NCBI GenBank assembly: GCA_964565875.1
Contig: CAZMGP010000016.1
Coordinates: 12,269 to 76,268, forward strand
DNA length: 64,000 nucleotides
DNA from: an uncultured Enterobacteriaceae bacterium
Lineage (GTDB): Bacteria; Pseudomonadota; Gammaproteobacteria; Burkholderiales; SG8-39
Direction of reading: 5' to 3'
Under the pieces are notes generated by a model that was not told where the DNA came from, did not search any database, and saw nothing but the letters and a program-made list of their open reading frames with translations. Below are positions 49,574 through 62,923 of the stretch, piece by piece; the first letter of the stretch is position 1, and every line of letters begins with the position of its first letter. The translations under genes were made by a program, and so were the position numbers.

Positions 49574-50239
49574 TCAAGTAACGAGCAAGCCCTTCTCGAT
49601 GGCGTAGGCCGTCAGTCCCGCAGTCCGGTGCGTACCGAGCTTCGCCATCAGCTTGGCGCGATGCTTCTCCACCGTCTTCACGCTGAGGAACAGGTATTCG
49701 GCGACCTCCTTGTTCGACCTTCCTTCGGCGACAAGCTTGAGCACTTCGCGCTCGCGGTGCGTGAGCATTTCCAGGGAACTGTAGGGCCGCGATCCGTTCC
49801 CCGACTCCGCGGCATGCTCGACGATCGCCGACACGTCTCGGCTGAAATAGCTCTTGCCCGCGGCCACGCTGCGCACGGCCTTGCGCAGTTCCTCGTGCGT
49901 CGCGTCTTTGAGCAGATAGCCGTCCGCGCCCGCGCGCAAGCTGGCGAAGATGAATTCGTCGAGCTTGTGCAAGGTCACCACCAGGATGCGCGTTTCCGGA
50001 TGGCGCCGCTTGATATCGGTGATCGCCTCCATGCCGTTCATGCCGGGCATGGTCAAGTCCATCAGCACCACGTGCGGTTGCAACTCTCCGGCGACACGAA
50101 TCGCATCGCGTCCATTGTCGCATTCGCCGACAACGGAAAAACCCGCCTCCTGTGACAGGAGCGCGCGCAATCCCGTGCGGATCAAGGTGTGATCTTCGAC
50201 GATGAGGATGCGAAGCCTGCCGTCTGCGTTATCGTCCAT
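49574..50239 (-). CDS. NarL/LuxR-family response regulator
   Basis: 221 aa. REC domain (LIVEDH, VVLMDLTMPGMNG) plus a LuxR-type HTH. Confidence 0.92.
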   Translation of the reverse strand: MDDNADGRLRILIVEDHTLIRTGLRALLSQEAGFSVVGECDNGRDAIRVAGELQPHVVLMDLTMPGMNGMEAITDIKRRHPETRILVVTLHKLDEFIFASLRAGADGYLLKDATHEELRKAVRSVAAGKSYFSRDVSAIVEHAAESGNGSRPYSSLEMLTHREREVLKLVAEGRSNKEVAEYLFLSVKTVEKHRAKLMAKLGTHRTAGLTAYAIEKGLLVT

Positions 50240-50299
50240 AGTGTTTTTCCTTCCCTATACAAACCGGCTCCGCCACCGTAACTGCCCCGGGGCGTCGAA

Positions 50300-51511
50300 T
50301 CACCCCAGCTCGAGGCGTGCGGCGTTCGCCGGACCTGCTCTTGTGCGCTCGATCTCGCAGCGCTGCTCGCCCGCGGACCGGGATTGCGGCCAACGCACGC
50401 GGATCGATGTCCCCTTCCCCGGCGCGGACTCGAGCGCATAGTTGCCGCCGGAGTGCCGCGCGCGCTCGCGCATGCTGTGCAAGCCGAGTCCGCCGGCGAA
50501 ATCGCCCTTTGCTCCCGCCGCGTCGGGATCGAAGCCGCGCCCGTCATCCTCGATGCGGAGCTCGAGGGCGCCGCGCCGCTTCGCCAGCCGGACTCTGATG
50601 CAGCAGGCGCCGGCATGCTTGAGCGCGTTGTTGCTGGCCTCTTGCACTATCCTGAATATCGGCGTCTTGAGCGCTTCGGGAATGTCCGATTCGGAAACCT
50701 TGATCTCGCGCTCCACCGCGACGCCGCCGGCGGCGGATTCGAATTCGCGAAAATACCAAGCCAAGGTGGCGAGGATTCCCAGATTGTCCAGGGTGGCAGG
50801 ACGCAGGTTCATGGCGATGCGGCGCACATCTTCGATGGCATCGCGAATCTTGCGGTTCAAGTGCTTCAGATAGGCTTTCGCCTGCACCCGATTGCCTGCG
50901 TCGAGCAATTCCGACAGGCGCACCATCGAAACGCTCACCAGGCTCAATGATTGCCCCAAGCCGTCGTGCAAGTCCGCGGCGATGCGCTGGCGCTCCGCCT
51001 CTTGAATGTTCAAGTGTTGTGCCGCGCGCCGGCACAGTTCGTTCTCCGCGTCGCGCAAGGCGGCAGCCGTGCGTGCTTCTGCACCTAGATCCTGCGCATA
51101 CAACGTCAGGCCATCGAGCCGACCATTACCGTCGCAATGCGCGCTGATTGCCAGCATCGCTTCGAGGATTGCGCCGTCTTTTGCGATCAGCGCCGCTTTC
51201 CCGCTCCAGATGCCGTTGCGCACGGCCAGCGGAATCGCACGGCGCACGATGCCGCGGCGCTGCGCGGGCGCGATGCAGCCGATCAGCGTCGTCGCGGCGG
51301 CCGCCCCGCCGCCTGAGCCCAAAAGTGCGCGGCCCGCTGGGTTGACGTAGCGCAGCTCTCCGCTGCAGTCGGCGATCGCCACCAGCGCGGGCATCGTCTC
51401 GACCGCGGCAAGCAGTCGCGCGCTTAGTTGCTCGCTAGCCGGGCGCCGGCGCAGGCTGCCTGGTGTCGCGCCGGGTTTGCGACGGGCTTCAGGCGGCCGC
51501 GTGACAGGCAT
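50300..51511 (-). CDS. Cytoplasmic PAS-domain histidine kinase (HisKA_3 type, intact)
   Basis: 403 aa. H-box RIAADLHDGLGQ, N-box EASNNALKHA, G1 EDDGRGFD, G2 GGLGLHSMRERA. Confidence 0.9.
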   Translation of the reverse strand: MPVTRPPEARRKPGATPGSLRRRPASEQLSARLLAAVETMPALVAIADCSGELRYVNPAGRALLGSGGGAAAATTLIGCIAPAQRRGIVRRAIPLAVRNGIWSGKAALIAKDGAILEAMLAISAHCDGNGRLDGLTLYAQDLGAEARTAAALRDAENELCRRAAQHLNIQEAERQRIAADLHDGLGQSLSLVSVSMVRLSELLDAGNRVQAKAYLKHLNRKIRDAIEDVRRIAMNLRPATLDNLGILATLAWYFREFESAAGGVAVEREIKVSESDIPEALKTPIFRIVQEASNNALKHAGACCIRVRLAKRRGALELRIEDDGRGFDPDAAGAKGDFAGGLGLHSMRERARHSGGNYALESAPGKGTSIRVRWPQSRSAGEQRCEIERTRAGPANAARLELG

Positions 51512-51891: not shown

Positions 51892-52542
51892 TTACTTGTT
51901 GTGACAGGTCTTGCACAGAGCACTGCCCGTGCCCGCTACCTTCAGCAGCCCCGGGCCGGGCACCGTGTACTTGTTGTGAACGTCGTGGCAGGTGGAGCAC
52001 TCCACTTGTCCGCTGAATAGAATCACCGAAGCGATGGTGCCGGTCTGCGTCTGCGTTCCCGAGCCGATGGTCACCACCTGCGAGCTCGGGTCGAACAACG
52101 AGCCGTTCGCCACGGCCAAGGCGGAATCGTAGACGAAACCGATCGGATGATCGTCCTTCAGATTGGCACCGATGTTGTTGGCGCTGCTGATGTAAGTTGA
52201 GCCTGACGCGCCGCCGAAACTATCCACCGCGACGGTGCCGTCGTGGCACGACAGGCACAGTTTCGACAATATCCCCGGCTGCCCGATGCTGGCCTTCAGC
52301 GTCGCACTGCCGTAGAGCGCGTAACTTTGGGCGGACAGCGCGTGATTCCATTGCGGCGCGCCCGGGATCGAAGTCATCGAACTGTGCGAGTCGTGGCAAG
52401 TGATGCAGACCTGGCCACCCGACCAGTTGTAATTGGTGAAGTCGTGGGCCGAACCCAGGATCGATCCGGCCTCGGCGGCGTGCGCCGCGAGCACCAACAC
52501 GCCTGCCACAGACAACTTAATCGCGCGCTTGCTCCAGTACAT
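51892..52542 (-). CDS. Tetrahaem c-type cytochrome, paralogue 3
   Basis: Preferred ATG at 52542 (SD GGGAGGA). 216 aa with signal peptide. Four CxxCH motifs (CITCH, CLSCH, CSTCH, CKTCH). Ends 2 residues after the last haem motif. Confidence 0.88.
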   Translation of the reverse strand: MYWSKRAIKLSVAGVLVLAAHAAEAGSILGSAHDFTNYNWSGGQVCITCHDSHSSMTSIPGAPQWNHALSAQSYALYGSATLKASIGQPGILSKLCLSCHDGTVAVDSFGGASGSTYISSANNIGANLKDDHPIGFVYDSALAVANGSLFDPSSQVVTIGSGTQTQTGTIASVILFSGQVECSTCHDVHNKYTVPGPGLLKVAGTGSALCKTCHNK

Positions 52543-52618
52543 GTCGATCCTCCCGTGCCAGTGCGGGCAAGTCCGCCGATCGGCGATGGACACCACTTCC
52601 CGCGCTGCCGCCTTCTCC

Positions 52619-53269
52619 CTAGTAATTGTGACAAGCGAAGCAAATCGCGCTTCGCGCCGTGCTGATTTTCATCAGCCTTGCCGTCGTCGCCGTGTAGGTG
52701 TTGTGCACGTCGTGGCAGGACGAACATTCGATCTGCCCGCCGTAGAGCATCATCGCGGCGATGGTACCGGTTTTCGTCTGCGCGCCGCTGCCGATCGTCA
52801 CCGTGGTGACGCTCGGATCGAACAGCGCTGCGTCGCGAACGGCGAGCGCGGAGTCATAAAGAAAACTCGAAGGATGATGCACGTTCAAGTCGGTCCCGAG
52901 CTTGTTCGCGCTGCTGATATACACGCCGCCGGGTGCCCCCCCGTAGCTGTCGACCGCGACCGTGCCGTCGTGGCAGGAAAGGCACAGCTTCGATGCGCTC
53001 GAGGGCTGGCCCATCACCGCTTTGAGCGTCGTGCTCGAGTACAGCGTGTACACCTGGGTGCTGCCGGCGTGGTTCCATAGCGGCGCGGCGATCACGGCGC
53101 TTTGTCCCTTGTGCGGCACGTGGCAGGCGATGCAGATCTGCCCGCCCGACCACGCCGCCGTGGAAAAATCGTGTGCCGATCCCATGATCGTGCCCGCTGC
53201 GGCAGGATGGGTTGCGAGCGCGAACAATGCCGCCGCCAGACATGCGCTCATCCGCTTCGTCGTATTCAT
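52619..53269 (-). CDS. Tetrahaem c-type cytochrome, paralogue 2
   Basis: Preferred ATG at 53269 (SD GGAGG 9 nt upstream). 216 aa with signal peptide. CIACH, CLSCH, CSSCH, CFACH. Confidence 0.88.
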   Translation of the reverse strand: MNTTKRMSACLAAALFALATHPAAAGTIMGSAHDFSTAAWSGGQICIACHVPHKGQSAVIAAPLWNHAGSTQVYTLYSSTTLKAVMGQPSSASKLCLSCHDGTVAVDSYGGAPGGVYISSANKLGTDLNVHHPSSFLYDSALAVRDAALFDPSVTTVTIGSGAQTKTGTIAAMMLYGGQIECSSCHDVHNTYTATTARLMKISTARSAICFACHNY

Positions 53270-53296: not shown

Positions 53297-55015
53297 CTAA
53301 TAGCTTTTCGGATTATGGCTCTCCCCGTGGCACACCAGATAGCACTGTCCATGGTTGGTCCCGGTGGAGATGAACTGCAGTCTTCCGTTCACCGGCTTGA
53401 CGATCGAGGTGTCGAAATTGATCAGCTTGCTGTTGTTGGTCGGCGTGCCCTGGGTGGAGCTGATGCCGTGCGGATCGTGGCAGGCGTTGCAGGGCGAGCG
53501 CTCCTCCACCACGTGCTTGCGGTGGCCGTCGTCCGTGCCGAAGGGCGAGGCACCATTGCTGGCGGAGGTCAGCACGGTGCGGTTATGGCACTTGTAGCAA
53601 AGCGCGTAATTCGCCGCGCTCTCGGTAGTGCGGTCTGCAGTGACGTATTGGCGCTCGAGCAAGGTCGGATAGATCGAGCCATGCGGCCCCTTCGGTCCGG
53701 TCCCGCCCGCACCGGGCCCAGTATTGTTGTTGTGGCAGTCCCCGCAGCGCATCGTGCTCGCGATCGTCCAGGGCGGCAGCAGGCTGGGCACGTTGGTGTT
53801 CTTCCCCGGGCCGGCAACCGGATGGTAGGAAGGATTGCCGGTGTTGAATTCGAGGCGCGTGTTGTTCTGCGCGATTTGCCGCGTCGTGTGCGACGCCGGC
53901 ATGCCGCTGCTGTCGGCGTGGCAGCGGAAACAGATCTGGTACTCGGCGATGACCGGATTGATGGCGAGGCCGTTGATGTCGATACCGCGTACGCCGGTCA
54001 GCGAACCGGGCACGGTGCCGGCGACGGCGTTCGATGCATGGGGATTGTGGCAGTCCTGGCATTCCACATGGCGCGATTGCACCACGGCAGTTTCGCTCGG
54101 ATCGTGCACGCCGGTGTTGGCCGCCACCGGATGGATCGAAGCCTTGTTGAATTCCGTCTGGATGTTGAACGTCGCCACGTTGGCGTTGTGGCAGGGGTAG
54201 CAATTGGCCTCCTCCGCCGCCGCGTTTTGCAACCACCTTTTGCCGCCGGCCGAATGCGGCCGGTGGCAGTTCTCGCAGCCGTTGGCCGCGACCGTGGCGC
54301 CGCTCGTATGCGCCCAGGGGCTCGCGCCGACGCCGTTCCAGGTCTTCGGCGACAAGCTGTGGTCGCTCTGCGCCCAATAGTTCTTCAGATGGCAGACCTG
54401 GCACAGCGCCGAGGCCTGATTCGGCATCACCAGGAACTTGCCGTTGGGATCCTCGTGCGGATCGTGGCAGGAGGTGCACTGCAGTTGGCCGGTGGAGTCC
54501 AGCCGCACCGGCCCGGTGAGCGTCGCCGGGTCGGCGAGTTCACCGCGCGTAGACGCAAGCGTCAACGTATAGGCGATGGACACCGGGTGGTCGTCGGAGA
54601 GATCGGTGCCGAGCAGCGTATTGCCTGCGCCCAGGGTCGTCGTCCCGCTCGCCATCGCGACCGCGCTGGCGCGGCTCAGCACTTCGCCCAATGCGATGGT
54701 GCCGTCGTGGCAGGACAAGCACATGAGCGACCCGCGCGTCGGCTGGCCGGCGTTGGCTTTGGCGGTCGAACTGGTGTAAGGCGTATAGGTCGAGGCGGGC
54801 GTGCGCCGGTTCCACAGCTGCATGCTCGGCGCCGCATTGTGCGGCGCGTGACAAAAAACGCAAATCTGGGTTTCGCCCGTCGCCTTCACCGTCCCCGGCC
54901 CGGATACGGAGAGATTGTGCTTGGTCGCTGCAATCCCGGCCCAGGCTTGGCTCGCGCTCAGCATCAGGGCCGCGGCGAGCAGGCGTGTCCACCGGCGCCG
55001 ATGTGCGCCGTTCAC
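53297..55015 (-). CDS. Multihaem c-type cytochrome (11 CxxCH + 1 CxxxCH)
   Basis: 572 aa. GTG start overlaps the upstream stop (GTGA). Signal peptide ...ASQAWA. KHNLS...CVFCHAPH N-terminal module. Confidence 0.9.
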   Translation of the reverse strand: MNGAHRRRWTRLLAAALMLSASQAWAGIAATKHNLSVSGPGTVKATGETQICVFCHAPHNAAPSMQLWNRRTPASTYTPYTSSTAKANAGQPTRGSLMCLSCHDGTIALGEVLSRASAVAMASGTTTLGAGNTLLGTDLSDDHPVSIAYTLTLASTRGELADPATLTGPVRLDSTGQLQCTSCHDPHEDPNGKFLVMPNQASALCQVCHLKNYWAQSDHSLSPKTWNGVGASPWAHTSGATVAANGCENCHRPHSAGGKRWLQNAAAEEANCYPCHNANVATFNIQTEFNKASIHPVAANTGVHDPSETAVVQSRHVECQDCHNPHASNAVAGTVPGSLTGVRGIDINGLAINPVIAEYQICFRCHADSSGMPASHTTRQIAQNNTRLEFNTGNPSYHPVAGPGKNTNVPSLLPPWTIASTMRCGDCHNNNTGPGAGGTGPKGPHGSIYPTLLERQYVTADRTTESAANYALCYKCHNRTVLTSASNGASPFGTDDGHRKHVVEERSPCNACHDPHGISSTQGTPTNNSKLINFDTSIVKPVNGRLQFISTGTNHGQCYLVCHGESHNPKSY

Positions 55016-56049
55016 ACCGCGCCCCCGACATAGCGCAGCACCTGCACGCGCTGGTTATAGGAATCGGCGATATAGATCCGGTCGTGCTCGTCGATGAAAA
55101 TGCCGGTCGGCAGCCAAAACTCGCCGCGCTCGCGGCCGAGTGTTCCGACGGAGAGGAGCAGCGCGCCGCGCTCGTCGAATACCTGCAGCGCGTTGAACAG
55201 CGAATCCACCACGTAGACGTGTCCGTAGCGGTCGGTGGCGACGCCCTTCTGCCGGCCGAGGTCGCCGTTGCCGTCGCCGTAGCGTCCGAACTTGCCGACG
55301 AAGTGCCCCTGCGGATCGAACATTTGCACGCGGAAGTTCAACGCGTCGGTGACGTAGAGCCGCCCTTCGGCGTTGCGCCAGGCGAGCGTCGGATAATTGA
55401 ATTCGCCGTCCGCCGTGCCGCGACGGCCGATGCTCGTAACCAGGGCACCGCCGCGGTCGAATACCTGCACGCAGTGCGCCCGCGTGTCGACCACGAACAG
55501 GCGTCCGCTTGCGGGATCGAAGGCGAGGCCCGTAGGCTGCTGCAGCTTCGCCTGCAATGGAAGCGGCGCAGCCGTCTTCGCGCCGGGCCGGATGAGGTAG
55601 ACCGCGGCGAGCGCCGAGTCGCTGACGTAGACTTCGCCTTCCGCGCCGCGCGCAAGGCCCACCGGGGAGAGCAAGGGGCGCTCCTGTGGCCCTTGGATGA
55701 GCGCGTATTCGCCGCGCGCGCGGTCGAAGCGATGTACCCCTTTCACGCCGGGGTCGGCGACGTACACGACGTCGCCTACCGTCACCACCGACATCGGCCG
55801 AATCAGGCGTGTTTCGCTGCGCCCGAACAAGAGATCGCCCAGACGCGCCAGCAGTCCGCGTTCGATGCCCAAATCCTCGGGTCGGGAAAAGGCGCGCACG
55901 TAGGCAAGACGCGGTGGATCGGGCGCCGCGGGCCATGCCAGGGCGGGTTCCTCGTGCCGCTCTTGCGCGCTCGGCGCGCAGCCGGCGAGCGCAAGCGCCA
56001 GGGCGAGCCCAAGCGAGGTGCTGAAGATCGCTTTGGCCGTCACGCTCAA
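55012..56049 (-). CDS. NHL-repeat beta-propeller lipoprotein
   Basis: Preferred TTG at 56049 overlaps the barrel-gene stop (TTGA); GTG at 56043 is also possible. Lipobox LALAGC. Six repeats of the type (V/L)YV(A/V/T)DxxNxxVQ(V/M)FD. Confidence 0.83.
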   Translation of the reverse strand: MSVTAKAIFSTSLGLALALALAGCAPSAQERHEEPALAWPAAPDPPRLAYVRAFSRPEDLGIERGLLARLGDLLFGRSETRLIRPMSVVTVGDVVYVADPGVKGVHRFDRARGEYALIQGPQERPLLSPVGLARGAEGEVYVSDSALAAVYLIRPGAKTAAPLPLQAKLQQPTGLAFDPASGRLFVVDTRAHCVQVFDRGGALVTSIGRRGTADGEFNYPTLAWRNAEGRLYVTDALNFRVQMFDPQGHFVGKFGRYGDGNGDLGRQKGVATDRYGHVYVVDSLFNALQVFDERGALLLSVGTLGRERGEFWLPTGIFIDEHDRIYIADSYNQRVQVLRYVGGAV

Positions 56050-58148
56050 AAGTCCCTGCGCGCGAGCAATTGAACGAGCGCGCGCGAGCGTTTGAAATCG
56101 CCCTGCGTCTCGAGCGTGCGTCCGATATCCAGGCTCACGCTCGCCTTGCGGTAACGCCACTGCGCCTTCAGCGACTCCATCGTCCGGCGGCGCGGAATCG
56201 GGCTGCCGTTGTCGCTTTCGTAGCCCGCGTTCAAAGACAGATCGATACCGAACCAGTAGCGCGACCAGTAGCGCAGGTCATAGCCTTGGAGGTTCACGTT
56301 CTGCAGGGAGTTGGCGTAGTCGACGCGCATGCGCCGCGCCGACAGCCGAATGTTGCCGGTGCCGAAAAACGGCTCCTCCGACTGCACGTAGACGTCGCCC
56401 GACTGGCGCTTGTAGGGGGAAATGGTTTCGCGCCGGTCTTCGTGCTCCAGGTTGCCGCCGATGCTGATTTCGAAGCGCGCTTTCAGCGGCAGATCGGCGC
56501 GCAGGCCGTAGAGATTGCTCTTGATGGCATTCAGCGGAAAAGTCGGCGTGCCCGAAGTCAGGCGCGGCGCCGAATCGAAATAGCGGAAATAGACGCTGGC
56601 GTAGCTGAGCCAGCCCAGACTCAGATTCAGCGTCTGATCGGCCTGGTTGTAGGTGAAGCTGCCGCCGACGTCGTAAGCGTAATCCGCGAGCACGTCCTGC
56701 CCGTCGACGATCGCCCCGCCGATGAGCCGTTGCACCCGGGTCAGCGTGCCGATCACGGTCAGCGTGTAGTCGAAACCTTCGACATAGGTCTGCGTGCGCG
56801 TGGCGTTGGCGAGCACCAGGCTGCCGCTCGCCACATGCTGCTGGGCGAGCGCGACGAACGAAGTTCCGGCGAGCGTGAGGCGTTCGCCGATGATGCGTGC
56901 CTGTGTCGCCGCCGCCTGCTGCTCGCGCTGGTCGTAGCGCAAGCCGTAGCTCGCCAGCGCCGTGGTGCTACCCAGCTTCTCTTGATAGCGGACGGATCCG
57001 TCCGCGCCGCGGTTACGCGCGTCGAGTTGCTTGGTCCGATTATCGTCGGCGTGCACCCCGAGTGCGCCGGTCCACTCGGGGCGCGGCGCATAAGTCAAGC
57101 CGGCGGAAGCCGCGTGCGCCACCGAACTCAGATCGGCCTGATCGCTCGCTGCGTAATTGAGCAAGCCGAAAGTCTGCAATTCCTTGGAATGCCGGCCGCG
57201 CAGGTCGAGCAGGATCCGCTCGTCCTTCCGGTCCGGGATCGAAGTGCCGCCGGCGAGCGCGTAGCTTTGCGTGTTGACGGTGATGAGGTTGGTCAGGTCG
57301 TACTCGCGCGCGCTGCCGAATTGGAAGCGCGAATCGAGGTTGAGACCCTGATTGCTCGAATTCGACGCCTGAATCGGCAGATTCGGGCTGCCGCTCAACG
57401 ACGCCTGCTGCGTCGTCTGGAATTGCAGCTGGGTCGATCCCAGGCCACCGAAGCTGCGGCTCGCCCGCAGATTTACCCGGTCCACCTGATCGTCGACGAT
57501 GCGGTCCGCGCCGCGCCCTTGAAAATGCGAGCGCGTCGCATCGATGAACAGCGGTACCGGCGTCACCGGGGCGAGCAGCGAGAAATCGAAGCCGTAACGC
57601 GTGTTTTCCTGCGTCATCACCTGCCCCGGCGCGACGCTCACGGTCGGGTTGAGGTGATCGAAGAACAGCGATCCCTGATAGGGCTTGTCGTGCAGGAAAC
57701 TCGCGCGGCTGGTGAAATTGTAGAGGGTGCCGCGCGATTGGGTTTCGCCCGCATCCGAGACGAAACTGCCGTGCTGCAGGATCGGCCCCCCGCCGATATC
57801 CAGCGACAGCAGATTGGGATGATAGACATAGCTGTGCGTCATCAAGAACACTTCCTCGCGCATGTCCGACATGGCCTGGCGCGAGCGCGAACCGGCTGCC
57901 GCGCCCACCGCAGGCTGTTCGGTGGCGAAGTCGTCACGCAGGTAGCGCATGGTGACGTAGCCCTCGGTCCCGGTGATACGGAAAGGCGCGATCTGTTGCG
58001 CGACGCAAGGCCAGGCGCCGAGCGCGGCCATAGCGACTGCGACGCGAAATACACCGCTGATCGAGGCATGCTCGCATGTCAGGCTTCCTGCTCGTTGCGC
58101 CTCGGCGGCCGGGGCACAGAAGGACAATTCCGCTATGCGCGCCGTCAA
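56046..58148 (-). CDS. Large outer-membrane beta-barrel (porin-like) protein
   Basis: 700-aa ORF. Alternating amphipathic strand pattern throughout (YGFDFSL, LQFQTTQ, GIDLSLNAGYES) and a C-terminal ...LLARRDF with terminal Phe. The TTG start at 58148 overlaps the upstream stop. The N-terminus/signal peptide is uncertain. Confidence 0.7.
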   Translation of the reverse strand: MTARIAELSFCAPAAEAQRAGSLTCEHASISGVFRVAVAMAALGAWPCVAQQIAPFRITGTEGYVTMRYLRDDFATEQPAVGAAAGSRSRQAMSDMREEVFLMTHSYVYHPNLLSLDIGGGPILQHGSFVSDAGETQSRGTLYNFTSRASFLHDKPYQGSLFFDHLNPTVSVAPGQVMTQENTRYGFDFSLLAPVTPVPLFIDATRSHFQGRGADRIVDDQVDRVNLRASRSFGGLGSTQLQFQTTQQASLSGSPNLPIQASNSSNQGLNLDSRFQFGSAREYDLTNLITVNTQSYALAGGTSIPDRKDERILLDLRGRHSKELQTFGLLNYAASDQADLSSVAHAASAGLTYAPRPEWTGALGVHADDNRTKQLDARNRGADGSVRYQEKLGSTTALASYGLRYDQREQQAAATQARIIGERLTLAGTSFVALAQQHVASGSLVLANATRTQTYVEGFDYTLTVIGTLTRVQRLIGGAIVDGQDVLADYAYDVGGSFTYNQADQTLNLSLGWLSYASVYFRYFDSAPRLTSGTPTFPLNAIKSNLYGLRADLPLKARFEISIGGNLEHEDRRETISPYKRQSGDVYVQSEEPFFGTGNIRLSARRMRVDYANSLQNVNLQGYDLRYWSRYWFGIDLSLNAGYESDNGSPIPRRRTMESLKAQWRYRKASVSLDIGRTLETQGDFKRSRALVQLLARRDF

Positions 58149-59287
58149 CGGTTGAGCTTGGCCGTGGTCTTCGCCGACGCGCCGTCTTCAGCCGCGTAGT
58201 CCGCGCCGCGCATCTTGCCGAAACCGAAGACATCGACCTTGTTTTGGCCGAATTGGCTCACTACGAATATCAGGTATTGCAGATCGAATCCCGGTGCGGC
58301 GTAACGACGGAACGCCTCTACGTTGTCGTAGTCGATGGCGACCGCGGCGGGAAGATTCAATCCTTCGCGATTGTCGCCCGGCTGGCCGAAGAACAGCAGC
58401 AGGTGGCCGTCGTTGTCGAACACCTGCACGTTCTCGAAGGCCGAGTCGCCGACGTACAGGCGCCCCTCGCGGTCGATGGCGATGCCCTTCGGCCGGGAAA
58501 AATTGCCGCGTTCGTTGCCGATCTCGCCGTAGGCGCGCAGCGGTGCGCCGTCGGCGGTGAAGCGCTGCACGCGGAAATTGCTGGTTTCCACCACGTAGAC
58601 GTCGCCGTTCGGGCCGATGGCGATGTTGGTCGGATGAAACAGCTCTCCCAGCTTCGATCCCGCCTGGCCGAACGTGAACAGCAGCTTGCCCGAGCGCTTG
58701 TCCAATACCTGCACCTGATGGTGCTGGATGTCGACCACGTAGAGTCGCTCTCCCGCGATGGCGGTGTCCACCGGCTTGAACTGCTTATCGCCGCCGAATG
58801 CATTGACGAATCGGTCGTCGCGATCGAACACCAGCACTTGGTCACGGCCGGTGTCGGTGACGTACTTGGTGCCGTCGGCGTCGACAGTGATGTTGATCGG
58901 CCGCTTCATGCGGCCGCTCGGGGCGCCATTGACGAGGCTGAACGACTGCCGCGCGAGATCGAACACCGCCAACCCCGGCGCGCGGCTGTCGACGACGTAG
59001 AGCTTACCGTCGAACATCGCCACGCCGTAGGGCTGCTTGAGCTGCTGCACCTTGGCGTCGTCGCCGAGAACGAACTGCGCGAATCCGCTCGTCGCTGCGC
59101 CCAGGTCACGCTCGCCGCTGATGGTCTTGAGATGCTGGATGCGCGGAGCTTCCGGCGCCGGCGGATAGAACGTCGGTCCCTGGACACGCGGCGCCTCCAC
59201 CGGCGCCGTCGCGCATGCCGCGAGCAGCGCGACGAGGCAGACGCTCGCCGCACTCCGGCGCAAATTCATCGCGCGCATCCGGACCAT
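58145..59287 (-). CDS. NHL-repeat beta-propeller lipoprotein (paralogue)
   Basis: 380 aa with lipobox LLAAC and repeated LYVVDxxxxxVQVxD-type NHL blades. Confidence 0.85.
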   Translation of the reverse strand: MVRMRAMNLRRSAASVCLVALLAACATAPVEAPRVQGPTFYPPAPEAPRIQHLKTISGERDLGAATSGFAQFVLGDDAKVQQLKQPYGVAMFDGKLYVVDSRAPGLAVFDLARQSFSLVNGAPSGRMKRPINITVDADGTKYVTDTGRDQVLVFDRDDRFVNAFGGDKQFKPVDTAIAGERLYVVDIQHHQVQVLDKRSGKLLFTFGQAGSKLGELFHPTNIAIGPNGDVYVVETSNFRVQRFTADGAPLRAYGEIGNERGNFSRPKGIAIDREGRLYVGDSAFENVQVFDNDGHLLLFFGQPGDNREGLNLPAAVAIDYDNVEAFRRYAAPGFDLQYLIFVVSQFGQNKVDVFGFGKMRGADYAAEDGASAKTTAKLNR

Positions 59288-59298
59288 TGCTCTCGCTG

Positions 59299-59961
59299 CT
59301 ACTTGTTGTGGCAGGCCACGCAGATCTTGCTGCCCGCCGTGTCCATCTTCACCATGCCGGTGCCGTTGGCGCCGACGGCGAAAGTGTTATGCACGTCGTG
59401 GCAGGAGGAGCATTCCATCTGGCCGTTGAACAGCATCACCGAGGCCACGGTACCGGTCTTGGTCTGCGCTCCGGCGCCGATGGTCACGGTTTTCGTCGCC
59501 GGGTCGAACAGCGAGCCGTTGGCGTTGGCGAGCGTGGTGTCGTAGAGGAAACCGATCGGATGATCGTCGTTCAGGGCGGCGCCGCCGAGATTGTTCTTTG
59601 CGCTGATGGTCGTGGTGCCCACCGTGCCGCCGAAGCTGTCGACCGCCACTGTACCGTCGTGGCAGGACAGGCACAGCTTGGAGTTGCCCTCCGGCTGCCC
59701 CAGCGCTGCTTTCAATGTCGGGCTGCTGTAGAGCGTATACACCTGCGTCGTCACCGCGTGGTTCCACAGGGGCGCCGCGGACACCGAGGTATTGCTGTTG
59801 TGCGGCGTATGGCAGGTAACGCAGACCTTCTGTCCCGGGTTCCAGTTCGCGGTGGAAAAGTCGTGCGCCGATCCCGCCAAAGTGCCGGCGAAGCCGAACT
59901 GTGCCGCTAGCAGCAGTCCCGTCCCTGCGATCCATTTAACTGCGACTGTCAGTGATTTCAT
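59299..59961 (-). CDS. Tetrahaem c-type cytochrome, paralogue 1 (first gene of operon)
   Basis: 220 aa, SD GAGGAG, signal peptide. CVTCH, CLSCH, CSSCH, CVACH. Confidence 0.88.
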   Translation of the reverse strand: MKSLTVAVKWIAGTGLLLAAQFGFAGTLAGSAHDFSTANWNPGQKVCVTCHTPHNSNTSVSAAPLWNHAVTTQVYTLYSSPTLKAALGQPEGNSKLCLSCHDGTVAVDSFGGTVGTTTISAKNNLGGAALNDDHPIGFLYDTTLANANGSLFDPATKTVTIGAGAQTKTGTVASVMLFNGQMECSSCHDVHNTFAVGANGTGMVKMDTAGSKICVACHNK

Positions 59962-60243: not shown

Positions 60244-61137
60244 ATGAACTACGAAGCCACGCTGACTCAAGCGGCGGCCGCGCGCCGCCCGGACACCCCT
60301 GCACCTGCTGTCGACACGCCTGCGCCTGCGCAGCAGCCGAAGCGCGTACCGCCGTCCGCCGCGATCGCCGCCATGTCGACGATGCTCCTCGTCTGGGCGT
60401 GGAACGTGCACCACGCCGGCCTGTACCAATCGGGAAAGGGTCTCGGCTACGTTCTCGGCCTAGTCGGCGGCTCGCTGATGCTGGTGCTGCTCCTCTACCC
60501 GTTGCGCAAGCACCTGCGCGTCATGCACGAATGGGGGCCGCTCAAATATTGGTTTCGTTTCCACATGATCGCGGGCGTGCTGGGGCCGCTGCTGGTGTTG
60601 TTCCATTCGACCTTCCGCGTCGGTTCGCTGAACGCGGCCGTAGCGCTCGCCTGCATGCTGCTCGTTGTCGCGAGCGGGCTCGCCGGCCGCTTTCTCTACC
60701 GCAAGATTCACCACGGCCTGTACGGCAGCCGCGCGAGCCTGCAGGAATTGCAGCAAACCCTGGCGCGCGAACGCGAAGCGCTGTCGCATTTGCTCGCGCG
60801 CCTGCCGCAAGTCGAGCGCGAGATCGACCGCTTCGCCGCCCTGGTCGCCCACGAGCCGCAAGGCTGGTACCGGCGCTGGGCGCATTTTCTATCGCTGGGT
60901 GCGAAACGCGCACTCGCGGTGCACCGTGCGCGGCGCGCCGTAGCGGCGCACGGTGTCCGATCAGACCTCGCCGCCCTGCTCGTCACCATCGACGCCACGC
61001 TGAAAGCGGTACAGCGCACGGCGCAGTTCTCCACCTATGAGCGCCTGTTTTCCCTCTGGCATGTGGTCCACATTCCGTTCTTGTGCATGCTGGTCATCAC
61101 TGCCCTCATCCATGTCGTGGCTGTTCACGTTTACTAG
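60244..61137 (+). CDS. Integral membrane protein with two His-x13-His helices (candidate di-haem b electron conduit)
   Basis: 297 aa with about 5 predicted TM helices. FRFHMIAGVLGPLLVLFH and WHVVHIPFLCMLVITALIHVV carry His pairs with 13 intervening residues. Confidence 0.7.
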   Translation: MNYEATLTQAAAARRPDTPAPAVDTPAPAQQPKRVPPSAAIAAMSTMLLVWAWNVHHAGLYQSGKGLGYVLGLVGGSLMLVLLLYPLRKHLRVMHEWGPLKYWFRFHMIAGVLGPLLVLFHSTFRVGSLNAAVALACMLLVVASGLAGRFLYRKIHHGLYGSRASLQELQQTLAREREALSHLLARLPQVEREIDRFAALVAHEPQGWYRRWAHFLSLGAKRALAVHRARRAVAAHGVRSDLAALLVTIDATLKAVQRTAQFSTYERLFSLWHVVHIPFLCMLVITALIHVVAVHVY

Positions 61138-62923
61138 GTTCATCGCCGCCGCCGCTCATTTCGTAGTCGCCATCTTCTTCGCCGGCGCTGCGCCTGCCGC
61201 GGCGCAGATGCTCGAGTCGGCGATCATGCCGGGCGCGGTCATTCAAGGCCACATCAAGCAGGAATCCGATTGCAAGAACTGCCACGTGCGCTTCGACCGG
61301 GCGGCGCAGCCGCGACTGTGCCTGGACTGCCACAAGGAGGTGGCGCGCGACGTGCAGGCGAAGACCGGCTACCACGGGCGCCTGAAGGAGCGCGAGTGTC
61401 GCGGCTGCCATACCGAGCACAAGGGGCGCAATGCCCGCATCGTCGTGCTCGACGAGCATGCCTTCGATCACGCCCAGACCGATTTCCTGTTGCAAGGCAA
61501 GCACGCCAAGCTCGCCTGCTCGAGTTGCCACCGCCCGCGCGTCAAACATCGGCAGGCGCCCACTTCCTGCGTCGGCTGTCACCGCAAGGACGACAAGCAC
61601 AAGGAGACACTAGGCGCCAAATGCGAAAGCTGCCACAGCGAAAAGAGCTGGAAGGAGGCGCGCTTCGATCACGCCAAGACGCAGTTCCCGCTCGTCGAGC
61701 GTCACGCCAAAGTGAAGTGCGCAGAATGCCACGCCGACGCACAGCACTTTGCCAAAACCGCGCGCGATTGCATCGCCTGCCACCGCAAGGACGACAAGCA
61801 CAAGGCGACGCTGGGCGCGAAATGCGAGAGCTGCCACAGCGAAAAGTCGTGGAAGGAAACGCGTTTCGAGCATGCGAAAACGCGCTTCCCGCTGCTCCTT
61901 TCTCACGCCAAGGTGAAGTGCAACAAGTGTCACGAAGACATGCAGCATTTGGCGAAGACCGCGAGCGACTGCGCCTCTTGTCACCGCAAGGACGACGCGC
62001 ACAAGGGAGCGCTGGGCGCGAAATGCGAGGGTTGCCACAACGAAAGGACCTGGAAAGAGGCGATTCGCTTCGATCACGCACGCGACGCGCGCTTTCCGCT
62101 GCGCGACAAGCATCAGGCCGCCAAATGCCAAAGCTGTCACAAAGATGTCCGTTTTCGCGACAAGCTGCCGACTGCCTGCTTCGGCTGCCACGAGCGCGAC
62201 GATCGCGAGAAAGGGCACAAGGGCCGCTACGGCGAGAAGTGCGAGTCTTGCCATGCCGAGAAGGCGTTCAAATCCGTTACCTTCGAACACGCCCGCGACG
62301 CGAAATTCGAACTGAAAGGCAAGCATGCGCAGGCCAAGTGCGACACCTGCCACAGCGGCGTTCTCTACCGCGACAAGCTCAAGCAGCGCTGTTTCGCCTG
62401 CCACGAAAAGGACGACAAGCACAAAGCGCAGCTAGGGCCGGAATGCGATCGCTGCCATAGCGAGCGCAACTGGAAGGAAACCTCGTTCGATCACGACCGT
62501 TCCGCGTTCCGGCTGCTCGACAAACACAAGGGCTTGGAGTGCAAGAAATGCCATGCGAGCCCCGCGTTCAAGGACGCAAAGTCCGAATGCGCCTCCTGCC
62601 ACGCCAAGGACGACTTTCACAAGGAGCGACTCGGCCCCGGCTGCGGCCAATGCCATCGGCCGCAGTCGTGGAAGACCTGGGAGTTCGACCACAATCAGCG
62701 CTCGCGCTTCAAGCTCGCCGATGCGCACGTGCGCGTGAAGTGCCTCGCCTGCCACGTGAAGCCGGTGAAGGAGAAGCTTACGCTTGCCGTCGAATGCTAC
62801 AGTTGCCACCGTGAGGACGACATCCATTTCGACACCAACGGCCAAAAATGCGAGCGCTGCCACGTGCCACAGAACTGGCGCAAAACCGTCGGCGACGCAC
62901 TGCTGCCGAAGAAGGATCGCTGA
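61112..62923 (+). CDS. 24-haem periplasmic cytochrome c (eight tandem trihaem c7-type modules)
   Basis: Preferred ATG at 61112 with signal peptide MSWLFTFTRFIAAAAHFVVAIFFAGAAPAAAQ. I counted 24 CxxCH motifs in a repeating FDH...C..CH...C..CH..DD.HK..LG..C..CH pattern. Confidence 0.9.
   Translation: MSWLFTFTRFIAAAAHFVVAIFFAGAAPAAAQMLESAIMPGAVIQGHIKQESDCKNCHVRFDRAAQPRLCLDCHKEVARDVQAKTGYHGRLKERECRGCHTEHKGRNARIVVLDEHAFDHAQTDFLLQGKHAKLACSSCHRPRVKHRQAPTSCVGCHRKDDKHKETLGAKCESCHSEKSWKEARFDHAKTQFPLVERHAKVKCAECHADAQHFAKTARDCIACHRKDDKHKATLGAKCESCHSEKSWKETRFEHAKTRFPLLLSHAKVKCNKCHEDMQHLAKTASDCASCHRKDDAHKGALGAKCEGCHNERTWKEAIRFDHARDARFPLRDKHQAAKCQSCHKDVRFRDKLPTACFGCHERDDREKGHKGRYGEKCESCHAEKAFKSVTFEHARDAKFELKGKHAQAKCDTCHSGVLYRDKLKQRCFACHEKDDKHKAQLGPECDRCHSERNWKETSFDHDRSAFRLLDKHKGLECKKCHASPAFKDAKSECASCHAKDDFHKERLGPGCGQCHRPQSWKTWEFDHNQRSRFKLADAHVRVKCLACHVKPVKEKLTLAVECYSCHREDDIHFDTNGQKCERCHVPQNWRKTVGDALLPKKDR

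What the first reader, a model, noticed from the sequence alone, without database searches (positions are those of the whole stretch)
51892..53269. Three paralogous ~216-220-aa tetrahaem cytochromes (two in tandem here, the third at 59299-59961): candidate polymerising nanowire subunits
Seen in sequence: the three proteins are about 60% identical (F vs G counted by eye) and share an invariant scaffold. That scaffold is GSAHDF...C..CH.(P/S)H...AP.WNH...GQP...SKLCLSCHDGTVAVDS.GG...HP...LFDP...VTIG.G.QT.TGT...GQ.ECS.CHDVHN...C..CHN(K/Y)-stop.

Each has four CxxCH motifs plus five conserved extra His, which is enough for all-bis-His ligation. Each protein ends only 2 residues after the last haem motif.

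Established knowledge: small tetra- and hexahaem cytochromes (OmcE, OmcS, archaeal homologues) polymerise into conductive filaments with continuous haem chains. They have little sequence conservation apart from the haem motifs.

Inference: keeping three diverged copies beside a putative secretion/porin module fits surface-exposed or filament-forming subunits. It could equally fit a set of periplasmic shuttles.
Basis: partly seen in the sequence, partly recalled or inferred. Interest (0 to 1): 0.7.

Follow-up and report, generated by a model that had tools for sequence, protein, structure and literature searches.

The report
OmcE-family cytochrome nanowire subunit genes

Summary
There are three minus-strand genes: F (51892-52542), G (52619-53269) and H (59299-59961). 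They encode 216-220 aa proteins that are 57-60% identical, each with four CxxCH motifs and ending two residues after the last one.

They are full-length homologues of the OmcE filament subunit (PDB 7TFS, E 6e-24; 9YUQ, E 2e-21). All four distal His ligands of that family are conserved.

The seven-gene operon is H, NHL lipoprotein, ~30-strand barrel, NHL lipoprotein, undecahaem cytochrome, G, F. This core recurs in most of 80 related loci across many phyla. It has the parts list of the published omcE cluster and of the "Uet" cluster (UetA/C/H/I/J).

Two other genomes keep the same three-copy layout, and each paralogue has its own orthologue there.

New supporting evidence comes from natural tandem fusions and from the undecahaem protein itself. 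Both join modules with a fixed 8-9-residue junction. That equals the free subunits' 2-residue tail plus 7-residue mature N-terminus, which argues for head-to-tail stacking.

Polymerisation itself remains untested, because the AF2 monomer model was uninformative. Verdict: a new member of a known kind, of moderate interest.

The parts
59299..59961 (-). H: the head copy of the OmcE-family (UetA-like) tetrahaem subunit, 220 aa. It is the first gene of the operon and the probable principal subunit.
   Evidence: Has 4 CxxCH. Matches the family HMM at E 5e-76. BLAST to G. sulfurreducens OmcE gives 32% identity, E 1.5e-21. The position directly upstream of the NHL gene is conserved in nearly all of the 80 loci. 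It is 81% identical to its L083 orthologue, more than F or G are to theirs.
58145..59287 (-). NHL2: an NHL-repeat beta-propeller lipoprotein, 380 aa.
   Evidence: Pfam NHL at E 1e-19. Lipobox LAAC at residue 22. Matches the Geobacter omcE-adjacent NHL protein at E 3e-40. Conserved after the subunit gene in the related loci.
56046..58148 (-). Large outer-membrane beta-barrel, 700-aa ORF with a C-terminal Phe. It is the putative conduit or anchor and resembles UetC.
   Evidence: No Pfam family. The AF2 model has pLDDT 86.7 with about 30 long beta-strands. Foldseek finds only generic similarity to large OM barrels, including MtrB, ushers and LptD, at TM 0.3-0.37. 295 homologues were found, all unnamed. 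Conserved in synteny. No detectable homology to the Geobacter 752-aa protein.
55012..56160 (-). NHL1: the second NHL-repeat beta-propeller lipoprotein. The likely true start is GTG 56043.
   Evidence: Pfam NHL at E 1e-24. Lipobox LAGC. 35% identity and E 3e-63 to the Geobacter omcE-cluster NHL protein.
53297..55015 (-). Undecahaem cytochrome (11 CxxCH + 1 CxxxCH, 572 aa), UetJ-like. Its residues 10-211 form a complete OmcE-like module. It is the candidate base or anchor of the filament.
   Evidence: Motif counts are. The module matches the OmcE-family HMM at E 1.6e-52 over positions 7-226 and G. sulfurreducens OmcE at 36% identity, E 1e-30. In 50/55 orthologues, exactly 9 residues follow the 4th haem His before an HxxSxxxWN segment.
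52619..53269 (-). G: a tail copy of the OmcE-family tetrahaem subunit, 216 aa.
   Evidence: Has 4 CxxCH and all ligands. Its orthologues lie in the same position in L083 (72%) and L033. Lineage-specific features are a VHHP doublet and an aromatic C-terminus.
51892..52542 (-). F: a tail copy of the OmcE-family tetrahaem subunit, 216 aa, and the last gene of the operon.
   Evidence: Has 4 CxxCH and all ligands. Its orthologues lie in the same position in L083 (73%) and L033.
60244..61137 (+). TM297: an inner-membrane protein of the PCC3/PCC4 'IMP' type, a putative di-haem b protein. It is transcribed divergently from the operon.
   Evidence: Has two W-x3-H-x13-H motifs and an SGxxG motif, as defined by He et al. 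2017. Conserved next to the cluster in betaproteobacterial loci L001-L005, L007, L009 and L083.
61037..62923 (+). 24-haem cytochrome built of c7-type repeats (26 aa per haem), a probable periplasmic electron relay. The likely start is ATG 61112.
   Evidence: Has 24 CxxCH. Pfam Cytochrome_C7 at E 2e-30. Co-conserved with TM297.
62945..64000 (+). 4Fe-4S / FAD pyridine-nucleotide oxidoreductase. It runs off the end of the window and is the third gene of the divergent unit.
   Evidence: Pfam Pyr_redox_3 at E 5e-36 and Fer4_10 at E 5e-11. The same gene follows the cytochrome in L083.
49574..51511 (-). PAS/HisKA_3 histidine kinase (50300-51511) and NarL/LuxR-type response regulator (49574-50239). 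They are the likely regulators of the cluster.
   Evidence: Pfam hits are. The same pair follows the tail copies in L083, and an HK/RR pair precedes the cluster in L010, L035, L042 and L047.

Best explanation
F, G and H are secreted tetrahaem subunits of the OmcE family, in the UetA-like sister branch.

Proposed mechanism:
1. Each subunit is exported by a Sec signal peptide and loaded with four bis-His c-haems.
2. It passes to the cell surface through, or at, the ~30-strand outer-membrane barrel, with help from the two NHL beta-propeller lipoproteins.
3. At the surface the subunits stack head to tail. The N-terminal arm of one subunit (G-x-[IL]-x-G-S-x-H-D-F-S-x-x-x-W) packs against the C-terminal end of the previous one, which stops two residues after its last haem motif. 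This gives a continuous haem chain like that in OmcE filaments.
4. The undecahaem cytochrome starts with a complete OmcE-like module and carries a built-in copy of the same junction. It is the likely base that sits in the barrel and links the chain to the periplasm. There the 24-haem cytochrome and the di-haem-b-type membrane protein connect it to cell metabolism.

H, the head gene, is the principal subunit. F and G are conserved extra subunits whose differences lie in surface loops and in the C-terminal junction residue. They are probably alternative or minor subunits.

Shown: the homology, ligand conservation, cluster conservation, barrel fold and junction rule. Inferred: surface location, polymerisation, polarity and the division of labour among the paralogues. 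The direction of electron flow is not determined.
For: 1. Homology to solved filament subunits. The profile of F, G and H matches 7TFS_A at E 6e-24 over residues 9-232 and 9YUQ_N at E 2e-21. BLAST to G. sulfurreducens OmcE gives 28-32% identity over the full length.

2. Ligands. In a 99-sequence alignment spanning both clades, H33, H132, H189 and all four CxxCH are invariant, and H53 is present in 98/99.

3. C-terminal rule. 102/108 members end exactly 2 residues after the last CxxCH, as OmcE does.

4. Cluster. The order subunit, NHL, barrel, NHL, undecahaem is conserved in most of the 80 loci that are long enough to show it. This matches the minimal omcE cluster described by Petersen et al. 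and the Uet parts list. NHL1 matches the Geobacter cluster NHL at E 3e-63. Both NHL proteins have lipoboxes. The barrel model has pLDDT 86.7.

5. Head-to-tail rule. Natural fusions with 2-4 tandem modules (P0361, P0362, P0365, P0372) have 8-9 residues between the last CxxC-H of one module and the H-D-F of the next in 5 of 6 junctions. The window subunits give 2 + 7 = 9. In 50/55 undecahaem orthologues, exactly 9 residues precede an HxxSxxxWN arm.

6. The paralogues are maintained. The same three-copy layout occurs in L083 and L033, with one-to-one orthology.

7. Operon structure. The gene gaps are 11, -4, about -4, -4, 27 and 76 bp.
Against: - No member of this WNH/UetA-like branch has been seen as a filament. 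The solved OmcE proteins are only about 30-36% identical and fall in a separate clade.
- The AF2 monomer model was poor (pLDDT 63) and its Foldseek search found nothing, so the fold and the oligomer are unverified.
- The barrel shows no detectable sequence homology to the Geobacter omcE-adjacent 752-aa protein.
- The gene order differs from Geobacter.
- The authors of the Uet cluster favoured a porin-cytochrome conduit, with polymerisation only as a possibility.
- Tandem fusions show that modules stack. They do not show that free subunits form long polymers.
- The signal-peptide cleavage site behind the 7-residue count is predicted by eye, not measured.
Confidence: 0.6

Rival explanations
1. 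This is a porin-cytochrome conduit with single terminal cytochromes, like Mtr or the published Uet model. The undecahaem protein threads the barrel. F, G and H each dock on it as monomeric, surface-exposed tetrahaem caps, in the role MtrC, OmcA and MtrF play. The three paralogues offer different redox potentials or substrate surfaces. No long polymer forms.
For: The Uet model of Eddie et al. treats UetA and UetJ as extracellular partners of a 28-strand barrel. Foldseek places the barrel model near MtrB among other large barrels. The junction rule would be satisfied equally by a single subunit docked on the undecahaem protein. Three paralogues recall MtrC, OmcA and MtrF (my own knowledge).
Against: Every free subunit keeps both halves of the junction: the invariant N-terminal His arm and the strict 2-residue C-terminus. 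That is what a repeating unit needs; a terminal cap needs only one half. Natural fusions reach four modules in a row. Both solved relatives are polymers.
Confidence: 0.25
2. F, G and H are soluble periplasmic tetrahaem shuttles, like cytochrome c3 or c7. They carry electrons between the inner-membrane module and the outer-membrane complex.
For: They have only a plain Sec signal peptide and no lipobox or sorting motif. Pfam sees only Paired_CXXCH_1, c7 and c3 pieces.
Against: The best and full-length matches are to extracellular filament subunits, not to c3 or c7. OmcE also has only a Sec signal. A dedicated 24-haem c7-repeat protein beside the cluster already fills the periplasmic role. The subunit gene is tightly linked to the barrel and lipoproteins across phyla.
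Confidence: 0.08
3. F and G are redundant duplicates with no role of their own, drifting copies of H.
For: They are less conserved than H (72-73% against 81% to the L083 orthologues). Most related loci (64 of 79 with a count) manage with one copy. One F orthologue, in L033, has lost the H53 ligand.
Against: Both are intact, with strong ribosome-binding sites, signal peptides and every ligand. Each has a positional orthologue in two other genomes at 57-65% cross-paralogue identity, so the duplications are old and the copies have been kept. Lineage-specific residues are conserved within each lineage.
Confidence: 0.07

Closest known systems
OmcE cytochrome nanowire of Geobacter sulfurreducens (GSU0618, PDB 7TFS) and of Desulfuromonas soudanensis (DSOUD_2954, presumably PDB 9YUQ), with the omcE gene cluster
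   Same: Full-length sequence homology. Four CxxCH and four distal His in the same places. Size of about 215-230 aa. The protein ends 2 residues after the last haem motif. The cluster holds NHL beta-propeller lipoprotein(s), a large outer-membrane barrel and larger multihaem cytochromes.
   Different: Only 28-36% identity, and a separate clade. WNH replaces WNR. The loops are shorter where OmcE carries glycosylated insertions, and no glycosyltransferase genes lie nearby. The gene order differs. There are three subunit paralogues instead of one. The large cytochrome contains a complete OmcE-like module, which the two Geobacter cluster cytochromes lack. No barrel homology is detectable.
Uet (undecahaem electron transfer) cluster uetABCDEFGHIJ of 'Ca. 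Tenderia electrophaga', also reported in Gallionella and Leptothrix cholodnii (Eddie et al. 2022; Hoover et al. 2023)
   Same: The core parts list is the same: a tetrahaem gene at the head (UetA), a ~28-strand barrel (UetC), two NHL proteins (UetH, UetI) and an 11-CxxCH 'doubled CXXCH' cytochrome (UetJ). Betaproteobacterial hosts are already reported.
   Different: The window operon has no peptidyl-prolyl isomerase (UetB), trihaem c7 proteins (UetD/E/G) or cupredoxin (UetF). Instead it has a divergent PCC3-type membrane protein plus a 24-haem cytochrome. The gene order differs (A-NHL-C-NHL-J against A-B-C-...-H-I-J). Sequence identity to the Tenderia proteins could not be tested. The held literature does not state that UetA is an OmcE homologue.
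OmcS nanowire and its osc (OmcS-companion) operon in G. sulfurreducens (Shen et al. 2025, as summarised in PMC13194489)
   Same: A filament subunit gene lies in one operon with paralogues of itself (omcS, omcT, oscC) and with proteins proposed for secretion, folding and morphology. Inter-subunit His ligation is shared with OmcE.
   Different: OmcS is a hexahaem protein with no sequence similarity to OmcE-family proteins. I could not read the primary paper.
Outer-membrane cytochrome cluster of Desulfovibrio ferrophilus IS5 (DFE_448-451, DFE_461-465; Deng et al. 2018)
   Same: A 12-haem and a 14-haem cytochrome are found in the outer-membrane fraction. There are two NHL beta-propeller proteins and small predicted extracellular cytochromes, all induced under electron-donor limitation. 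Related loci here also carry a 13-14-haem protein after the barrel.
   Different: Homology was not tested because no sequences were at hand. Those authors attributed the nanowire-like structures to membrane extensions.
PCC3 porin-cytochrome cluster of Fe(II)-oxidising bacteria (He et al. 2017)
   Same: The divergent unit has the ~300-aa inner-membrane protein with two WX3HX13H motifs and SGXXG, next to a periplasmic cytochrome with more than 20 haems.
   Different: PCC3's outer part is a porin plus one very large extracellular cytochrome (median 34 haems). Here the outer part is the OmcE/Uet-type module.

Membership tests
OmcE cytochrome-filament subunit family | Full-length sequence homology to a subunit solved in a filament | tested here: met
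   The profile matches 7TFS_A at E 6e-24 (query 11-216, chain 9-232) and 9YUQ_N at E 2e-21. BLAST and phmmer to G. sulfurreducens OmcE give E 1e-19 to 4e-25.
OmcE cytochrome-filament subunit family | Four CxxCH motifs plus four conserved distal His for bis-His ligation | tested here: met
   H33, H53, H132, H189 and all CxxCH are invariant or 98/99 across 99 sequences, including the Geobacter clade. F, G and H have the canonical pattern.
OmcE cytochrome-filament subunit family | Polypeptide ends immediately (2 residues) after the last haem motif | tested here: met
   102/108 family members, including OmcE, D. soudanensis OmcE, F, G and H.
OmcE cytochrome-filament subunit family | Gene lies with a beta-propeller lipoprotein and a large outer-membrane beta-barrel (the criterion used by Petersen et al. 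to pick likely nanowire formers) | tested here: met
   There are two NHL proteins with lipoboxes. NHL1 matches the Geobacter cluster NHL at E 3e-63. The adjacent 700-aa protein models as a ~30-strand barrel at pLDDT 86.7. The criterion is quoted.
OmcE cytochrome-filament subunit family | Barrel homologous to the one in the Geobacter omcE cluster | tested here: not met
   No BLAST or phmmer hit. hhalign probability is 0.6% with A3 and 10.7% with a 48-sequence profile. Barrels diverge fast, so this is weak negative evidence.
OmcE cytochrome-filament subunit family | Same protein fold and haem arrangement as 7TFS | tested here: inconclusive
   The AF2 model without haems has pLDDT 63. Its Foldseek search of the PDB gives a best E of 7. 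The literature notes that such coil-rich folds give no fold-search hits beyond close homologues.
OmcE cytochrome-filament subunit family | Polymerises, with a haem ligated by a His of the neighbouring subunit | not testable with these tools
   No multimer or haem-aware prediction and no experiment were available. Indirect support comes from the 8-9-residue junction rule in tandem fusions and in the undecahaem protein.
Uet (undecahaem electron transfer) cluster | Co-located tetrahaem (UetA), ~28-strand barrel (UetC), two NHL proteins (UetH/I) and an 11-CxxCH cytochrome (UetJ) | tested here: met
   Motif counts are, Pfam NHL and Paired_CXXCH_1, and the barrel model.
Uet (undecahaem electron transfer) cluster | UetB peptidyl-prolyl isomerase, UetD/E/G trihaem c7 cytochromes and UetF cupredoxin in the cluster | tested here: not met
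   The seven-gene operon and its immediate flanks hold none of these. A 24-haem c7-repeat protein lies divergently instead.
Uet (undecahaem electron transfer) cluster | Sequence homology to the Ca. Tenderia electrophaga Uet proteins (ALP54622.1 and others) | not testable with these tools
PCC3/PCC4 inner-membrane protein (He et al. 2017) | About 300 aa, two WX3HX13H motifs and an SGXXG motif | tested here: met
   TM297 is 297 aa. It has WFRFH-x13-H at residue 103, WHVVH-x13-H at 272 and SGLAG at 144. The count of five helices was not established, because the crude hydropathy analysis gave about four segments.
MtrA/DmsE-type decahaem porin-cytochrome | Decahaem protein reaching the family score cut-off | tested here: not met
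   The NCBIfam decahem_SO and GSU2203 hits score 19-49 bits against cut-offs of 192-325.

The most novel reading that the evidence does not exclude
The cluster encodes an ordered, multi-component cytochrome filament rather than a simple homopolymer. The undecahaem (UetJ-like) protein carries a built-in cis copy of the inter-subunit junction and acts as the membrane-anchored initiator. Free subunits add head to tail onto its N-terminal arm. The conserved tail paralogues F and G are specialised subunits for the tip, for termination or for an alternative surface. That would give the first genetic candidates for the initiator and minor subunits that Petersen et al. reported as missing from omcE operons. 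It would also mean that the 'Uet' electron-uptake clusters of cathode- and iron-oxidising bacteria are nanowire machines.
Probability: 0.25. Interest if true: 0.8.

Novelty: new member of a known kind. Interest (0 to 1): 0.5.

Why it matters
Cytochrome nanowires have been solved from only a few organisms. How they are anchored, started and stopped is an acknowledged open question.

This locus belongs to a very large and mostly unnamed sister branch of OmcE. That branch has 4,822 clusters at 50% identity and spans many phyla beyond the five reported.

Three features make the open question testable by sequence-guided experiments:
- a conserved set of three subunit paralogues in one operon;
- a large cytochrome that begins with a full subunit module;
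- a fixed 8-9-residue junction shared by natural fusions, that cytochrome, and the sum of the free subunits' two ends.

The locus also ties the Uet electron-uptake cluster of iron- and cathode-oxidisers to the OmcE nanowire family. The literature held here does not state that link. The link would suggest that filaments serve electron uptake as well as metal reduction.

On its own, however, the window adds one more member to described systems.

Tried and rejected
- **AF2 model of F.** Built from a 99-sequence alignment, it had low confidence (pLDDT 63, pTM 0.57), especially for residues 21-70 and 104-122. Its Foldseek search of the PDB gave nothing (best E 7). I treat this as uninformative, not as evidence against the fold.
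- **Barrel homology to the Geobacter omcE-adjacent 752-aa protein.** BLAST, phmmer, HMM and two hhalign runs were all negative.
- **Promoter and terminator scans** around F, G and H. Hits were no more frequent than in shuffled sequence, so they give no sign of separate transcription of F and G.
- **Primary papers.** I tried to read the OmcE structure paper (DOI and PMC9357133) and Shen et al. 2025 (PMC11845295). Neither is held, so I could not take the identity of the inter-subunit His from the literature.
- **Closer relative.** I looked for one through P0511 and through the exact H protein. Neither is on record. The organism is therefore only placed as betaproteobacterium-like, from its neighbours' labels.
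- **PCC3 for the whole cluster.** Rejected, because the outer part is different and only the inner-membrane/periplasmic unit fits.
- **Mtr/DmsE-type decahaem family.** Rejected, because the scores are far below the cut-offs.
- **NCBIfam 'phage tail tube' hit on the barrel.** At 32 bits against a cut-off of 60, I dismissed it as beta-rich noise.
- **Recent gene conversion among the paralogues.** Rejected, because the longest identical DNA run is 21 nt.
Full report
**1. The observation**

The three ORFs are present on the minus strand. The likely starts are ATG 52542 for F, ATG 53269 for G and ATG 59961 for H. Each start follows a strong Shine-Dalgarno sequence. The resulting products are 216, 216 and 220 aa, which matches the orthologues in the closest related contig.

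Each protein has exactly four CxxCH motifs. Pairwise identity is 57-60%. All three carry Sec-type signal peptides and end two residues after the last CxxCH. DNA identity is 64-67% with no long identical runs, so these are old duplicates and not products of recent gene conversion.

**2. What the proteins are**

Pfam and NCBIfam recognise only the C-terminal 'doubled CXXCH' piece. A profile of the three proteins searched against all PDB sequences gives two strong full-length matches and nothing else of note:
- 7TFS chain A, the G. sulfurreducens OmcE filament subunit, at E 6e-24;
- 9YUQ, a 218-aa 'putative multiheme cytochrome c', at E 2e-21. I take this to be the D. soudanensis OmcE bundle of Petersen et al., from its length and the paper.

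Direct BLAST to G. sulfurreducens OmcE gives 28-32% identity over the whole length.

In a 99-sequence alignment joining window-like proteins and OmcE-like proteins, all four CxxCH are invariant. So are three distal His (H33 in the N-terminal HDF, H132 in DHP, H189 in CHDVH), and H53 is present in 98/99. Petersen et al. likewise report four conserved distal His.

It is His in 47/47 window-like sequences and Arg in 52/52 OmcE-like sequences. It is therefore a subfamily marker and most simply a substitute for the Arg. Whether it ever ligates a haem is unknown.

**3. The neighbourhood**

The genes H, NHL2, barrel, NHL1, undecahaem, G and F are packed with gaps of 11, -4, about -4, -4, 27 and 76 bp. 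I read them as one operon.
- Both NHL proteins have lipoboxes and Pfam NHL repeats.
- The 700-aa protein has no Pfam family. It models confidently (pLDDT 86.7) as a barrel of about 30 long strands. It resembles large outer-membrane barrels such as MtrB, ushers and LptD only generically.
- The 572-aa cytochrome has 11 CxxCH plus one CxxxCH.
- Downstream lie a PAS histidine kinase and a NarL-type regulator.
- Divergently upstream lie a 297-aa membrane protein, a 24-haem c7-repeat cytochrome and a 4Fe-4S/FAD oxidoreductase.
- The membrane protein has the two WX3HX13H motifs and the SGXXG motif that He et al. used to define the PCC3/PCC4 inner-membrane protein, a putative di-haem b protein.
- The wider flanks are housekeeping genes.

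**4. Related loci**

A genome scan found 574 confirmed relatives, of which the best 80 loci were kept. The order subunit, NHL, barrel, NHL, ~570-aa 11-CxxCH cytochrome is conserved in most loci long enough to show it.

By the record titles, these loci come from beta- and gammaproteobacteria, Desulfobacterota, Nitrospirota, Bacteroidota, Calditrichota, Ignavibacteria/Chlorobiota, Planctomycetota, Gemmatimonadota, Sumerlaeota and others.

The divergent membrane-protein/24-haem unit accompanies the cluster only in betaproteobacterial loci. An exhaustive profile search finds 4,822 clusters at 50% identity (E<=1e-3), with 468 at E<=1e-30.

**5. Comparison with the real omcE locus**

I fetched the G. 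sulfurreducens locus. It has two multihaem cytochromes (9 and 8 CxxCH), an NHL protein, omcE, a 752-aa protein without a Pfam family, and then glycosyltransferases. This agrees with Petersen et al.'s description of the minimal cluster.
- NHL1 and NHL2 match the Geobacter NHL protein at E 3e-63 and 3e-40.
- The barrel has no detectable similarity to the 752-aa protein by BLAST, phmmer, HMM or hhalign.

Of the accessory proteins, then, the NHL lipoproteins are demonstrably homologous. The barrel is only analogous as far as these tests can see.

**6. The Uet connection**

The parts list also equals the core of the 'Uet' cluster named in Ca. Tenderia electrophaga and reported in Gallionella and Leptothrix:
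- UetA, a tetrahaem predicted to be extracellular and the first gene;
- UetC, a 28-strand barrel with a pore of about 5 nm;
- UetH and UetI, NHL proteins;
- UetJ, an undecahaem.

The window lacks UetB, UetD/E/G and UetF. I could not compare sequences with Tenderia. The Uet authors proposed an electron-uptake conduit and mentioned polymerisation only as a possibility. No paper in the held library discusses both UetA and OmcE. The D. ferrophilus IS5 cluster, with 12- and 14-haem outer-membrane cytochromes and two NHL proteins, looks like the same kind of module but was not tested.

**7. The three paralogues**

In a neighbour-joining tree, H groups with the betaproteobacterial 'head' copies. F and G each pair with the corresponding tail copy of L033. 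G. sulfurreducens and D. soudanensis OmcE fall in a separate clade.

The closest contig, L083 (NCBI GCA_023258995.1), reproduces the whole layout, including two 216-aa tail genes and the kinase/regulator pair. Orthology is one to one:

| Window copy | L083 orthologue | Identity |
|---|---|---|
| F | tail 2 | 73% |
| G | tail 1 | 72% |
| H | head | 81% |
| any cross-paralogue pair | — | 57-65% |

All three lineages keep every ligand, except that the L033 F copy has H53 changed to R. G has a lineage-specific VHHP doublet and an aromatic last residue (CHNY or CHSF), where H, F and OmcE end in Lys.

About one locus in five carries 2-4 small copies. In Bacteroidota- and Calditrichota-type loci, some secondary copies have a fifth CxxCH or lack the N-terminal His.

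I conclude that H is the principal subunit. F and G are maintained, faster-evolving extra subunits. Their specific roles are not determined.

**8. Evidence for head-to-tail stacking**

Two observations go beyond plain homology.

First, the best hits of the exhaustive search are natural fusions with two to four complete modules in tandem: P0361, P0362, P0365 and P0372. In five of six junctions, 8-9 residues separate the last CxxC-H of one module from the H of the next module's HDF. For F, G and H, the two-residue tail plus the seven residues of the predicted mature N-terminus before that His add up to 9. For OmcE the sum is 8.

Second, the undecahaem protein begins with a complete OmcE-like module (E 1.6e-52). 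In 50 of 55 orthologues across phyla, exactly nine residues then lead to H-x-x-S-x-x-x-W-N. This is the same signature as the free subunits' N-terminal arm, H-D-F-S-x-x-x-W.

The family-wide rule that free subunits stop two residues after the last haem motif (102/108) fits a C-terminus that must meet the next arm. I therefore infer the following:
- The N-terminal arm of one module binds the C-terminal end of the previous one.
- The undecahaem protein supplies this contact in cis on one side and offers its own N-terminal arm to a free subunit on the other. That makes it a natural base for a chain.

The two Geobacter cluster cytochromes lack such a module.

**9. What is not shown**

Polymer length, surface location, polarity and the direction of electron flow are all inferences. 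The AF2 monomer model was poor and its fold search was empty, which is expected for a coil-rich, haem-scaffolded protein. I could not read the primary OmcE paper to learn which His crosses the interface.

The main rival is a porin-cytochrome conduit in which F, G and H dock singly. It is compatible with the junction rule. It explains less well why every free subunit keeps both halves of the junction, and why fusions reach four modules.

**10. Verdict**

The locus is a member of the OmcE family within an OmcE/Uet-type cluster. Both the occurrence of this family in Pseudomonadota and the Uet cluster in Betaproteobacteria are already published, so I rate it a new member of a known kind.

Its value lies in three testable features: the three conserved paralogues, the module-bearing undecahaem protein and the fixed junction. 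These bear on the open question of how cytochrome nanowires are started, anchored and ended.

Noticed in passing
window 53297-55015 (-); also the ~570-aa cytochromes in L001-L080: The undecahaem cytochrome starts with a complete OmcE-like tetrahaem module (residues 10-211, E 1.6e-52). In 50/55 orthologues, exactly 9 residues then lead to an HxxSxxxWN segment that mimics the free subunits' N-terminal arm. The two cytochromes in the Geobacter omcE cluster have no such module.
   Followed up: yes
proteins P0361, P0362, P0365, P0372: These are natural tandem fusions of 2-4 complete OmcE-like modules in one polypeptide, with 8-9-residue junctions. P0361 continues into non-haem C-terminal domains. 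They amount to covalent 'pre-polymerised' versions of the subunit.
   Followed up: partly
window 60244-61137 (+): The 297-aa membrane protein has two W-x3-H-x13-H motifs and an SGxxG motif, the signature of the PCC3/PCC4 inner-membrane protein (putative di-haem b). A 24-haem cytochrome and a 4Fe-4S/FAD oxidoreductase (62945 to the end of the window) follow it. Together they could form a split, NOX/ferric-reductase-like route from cytoplasmic NAD(P)H to the periplasm. This is my inference and was not tested.
   Followed up: partly
position 67 of F (WNH); alignment A2: There is a clean subfamily split. All 47 window-like sequences have Trp-Asn-His, and all 52 OmcE-clade sequences, plus the module inside the undecahaem protein, have Trp-Asn-Arg. 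A ninth conserved His is what Petersen et al. proposed for a filament 'stopper', but here it is present in every member of the branch.
   Followed up: partly
L045, L047, L051, L059, L065 and others: In loci labelled Bacteroidota, Calditrichota, Ignavibacteria and similar (record titles), secondary OmcE-like copies form their own clades. Nine have a fifth CxxCH. Several lack the N-terminal His and/or H53 (for example L059 10816-11451 and L047 16639-17331). They could be cap or tip variants.
   Followed up: partly
window 52619-53269 (-) and its orthologues in L083 and L033: The G lineage has a His-His doublet at the DHP ligand site (VHHP). It ends in an aromatic residue (CHNY or CHSF) instead of the Lys found at the end of H, F and OmcE and at position +2 of most cis junctions.
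   Followed up: no
L083 2671-4899: In the closest relative, the cluster lies next to ffh (SRP54) and a ccsA-like Cytochrom_C_asm gene. Petersen et al. place the Desulfuromonadia omcE cluster between resB/ccsB and ffh. This may be coincidence, since the ffh-ypjD pairing is common in proteobacteria (my own knowledge), or a trace of shared history.
   Followed up: no
L033 (CAYZFN010000134.1): This MAG contig is titled 'uncultured Enterobacteriaceae bacterium'. It carries the same three-copy cluster, and its proteins are 54-69% identical to those of the window, as in the loci titled beta proteobacterium. The label or the binning looks doubtful.
   Followed up: no
loci L022-L080: By the MAG record titles, the full cluster (subunit, NHL, barrel, NHL, undecahaem) occurs in Bacteroidota, Calditrichota, Ignavibacteria/Chlorobiota, Planctomycetota, Gemmatimonadota, Sumerlaeota, KSB1, Deferribacteres and Bdellovibrionota. 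That is wider than the five phyla listed for OmcE homologues in the 2025 preprint.
   Followed up: partly
window 56046-58148 (-): NCBIfam gives a sub-threshold hit of the barrel (residues 418-501) to a phage tail tube model (NF052337, 32 bits against a cut-off of 60). This region is the small insert that interrupts the barrel strands in the AF2 model. The hit is probably noise.
   Followed up: no
window 41417-44117 (-) and 1380-4292 (-): The ordinary chromosomal context includes pcm, an M23/LysM (NlpD-like) peptidase and an RpoS-like sigma factor in a row. A 970-aa molybdopterin oxidoreductase lies near the start of the window.
   Followed up: no
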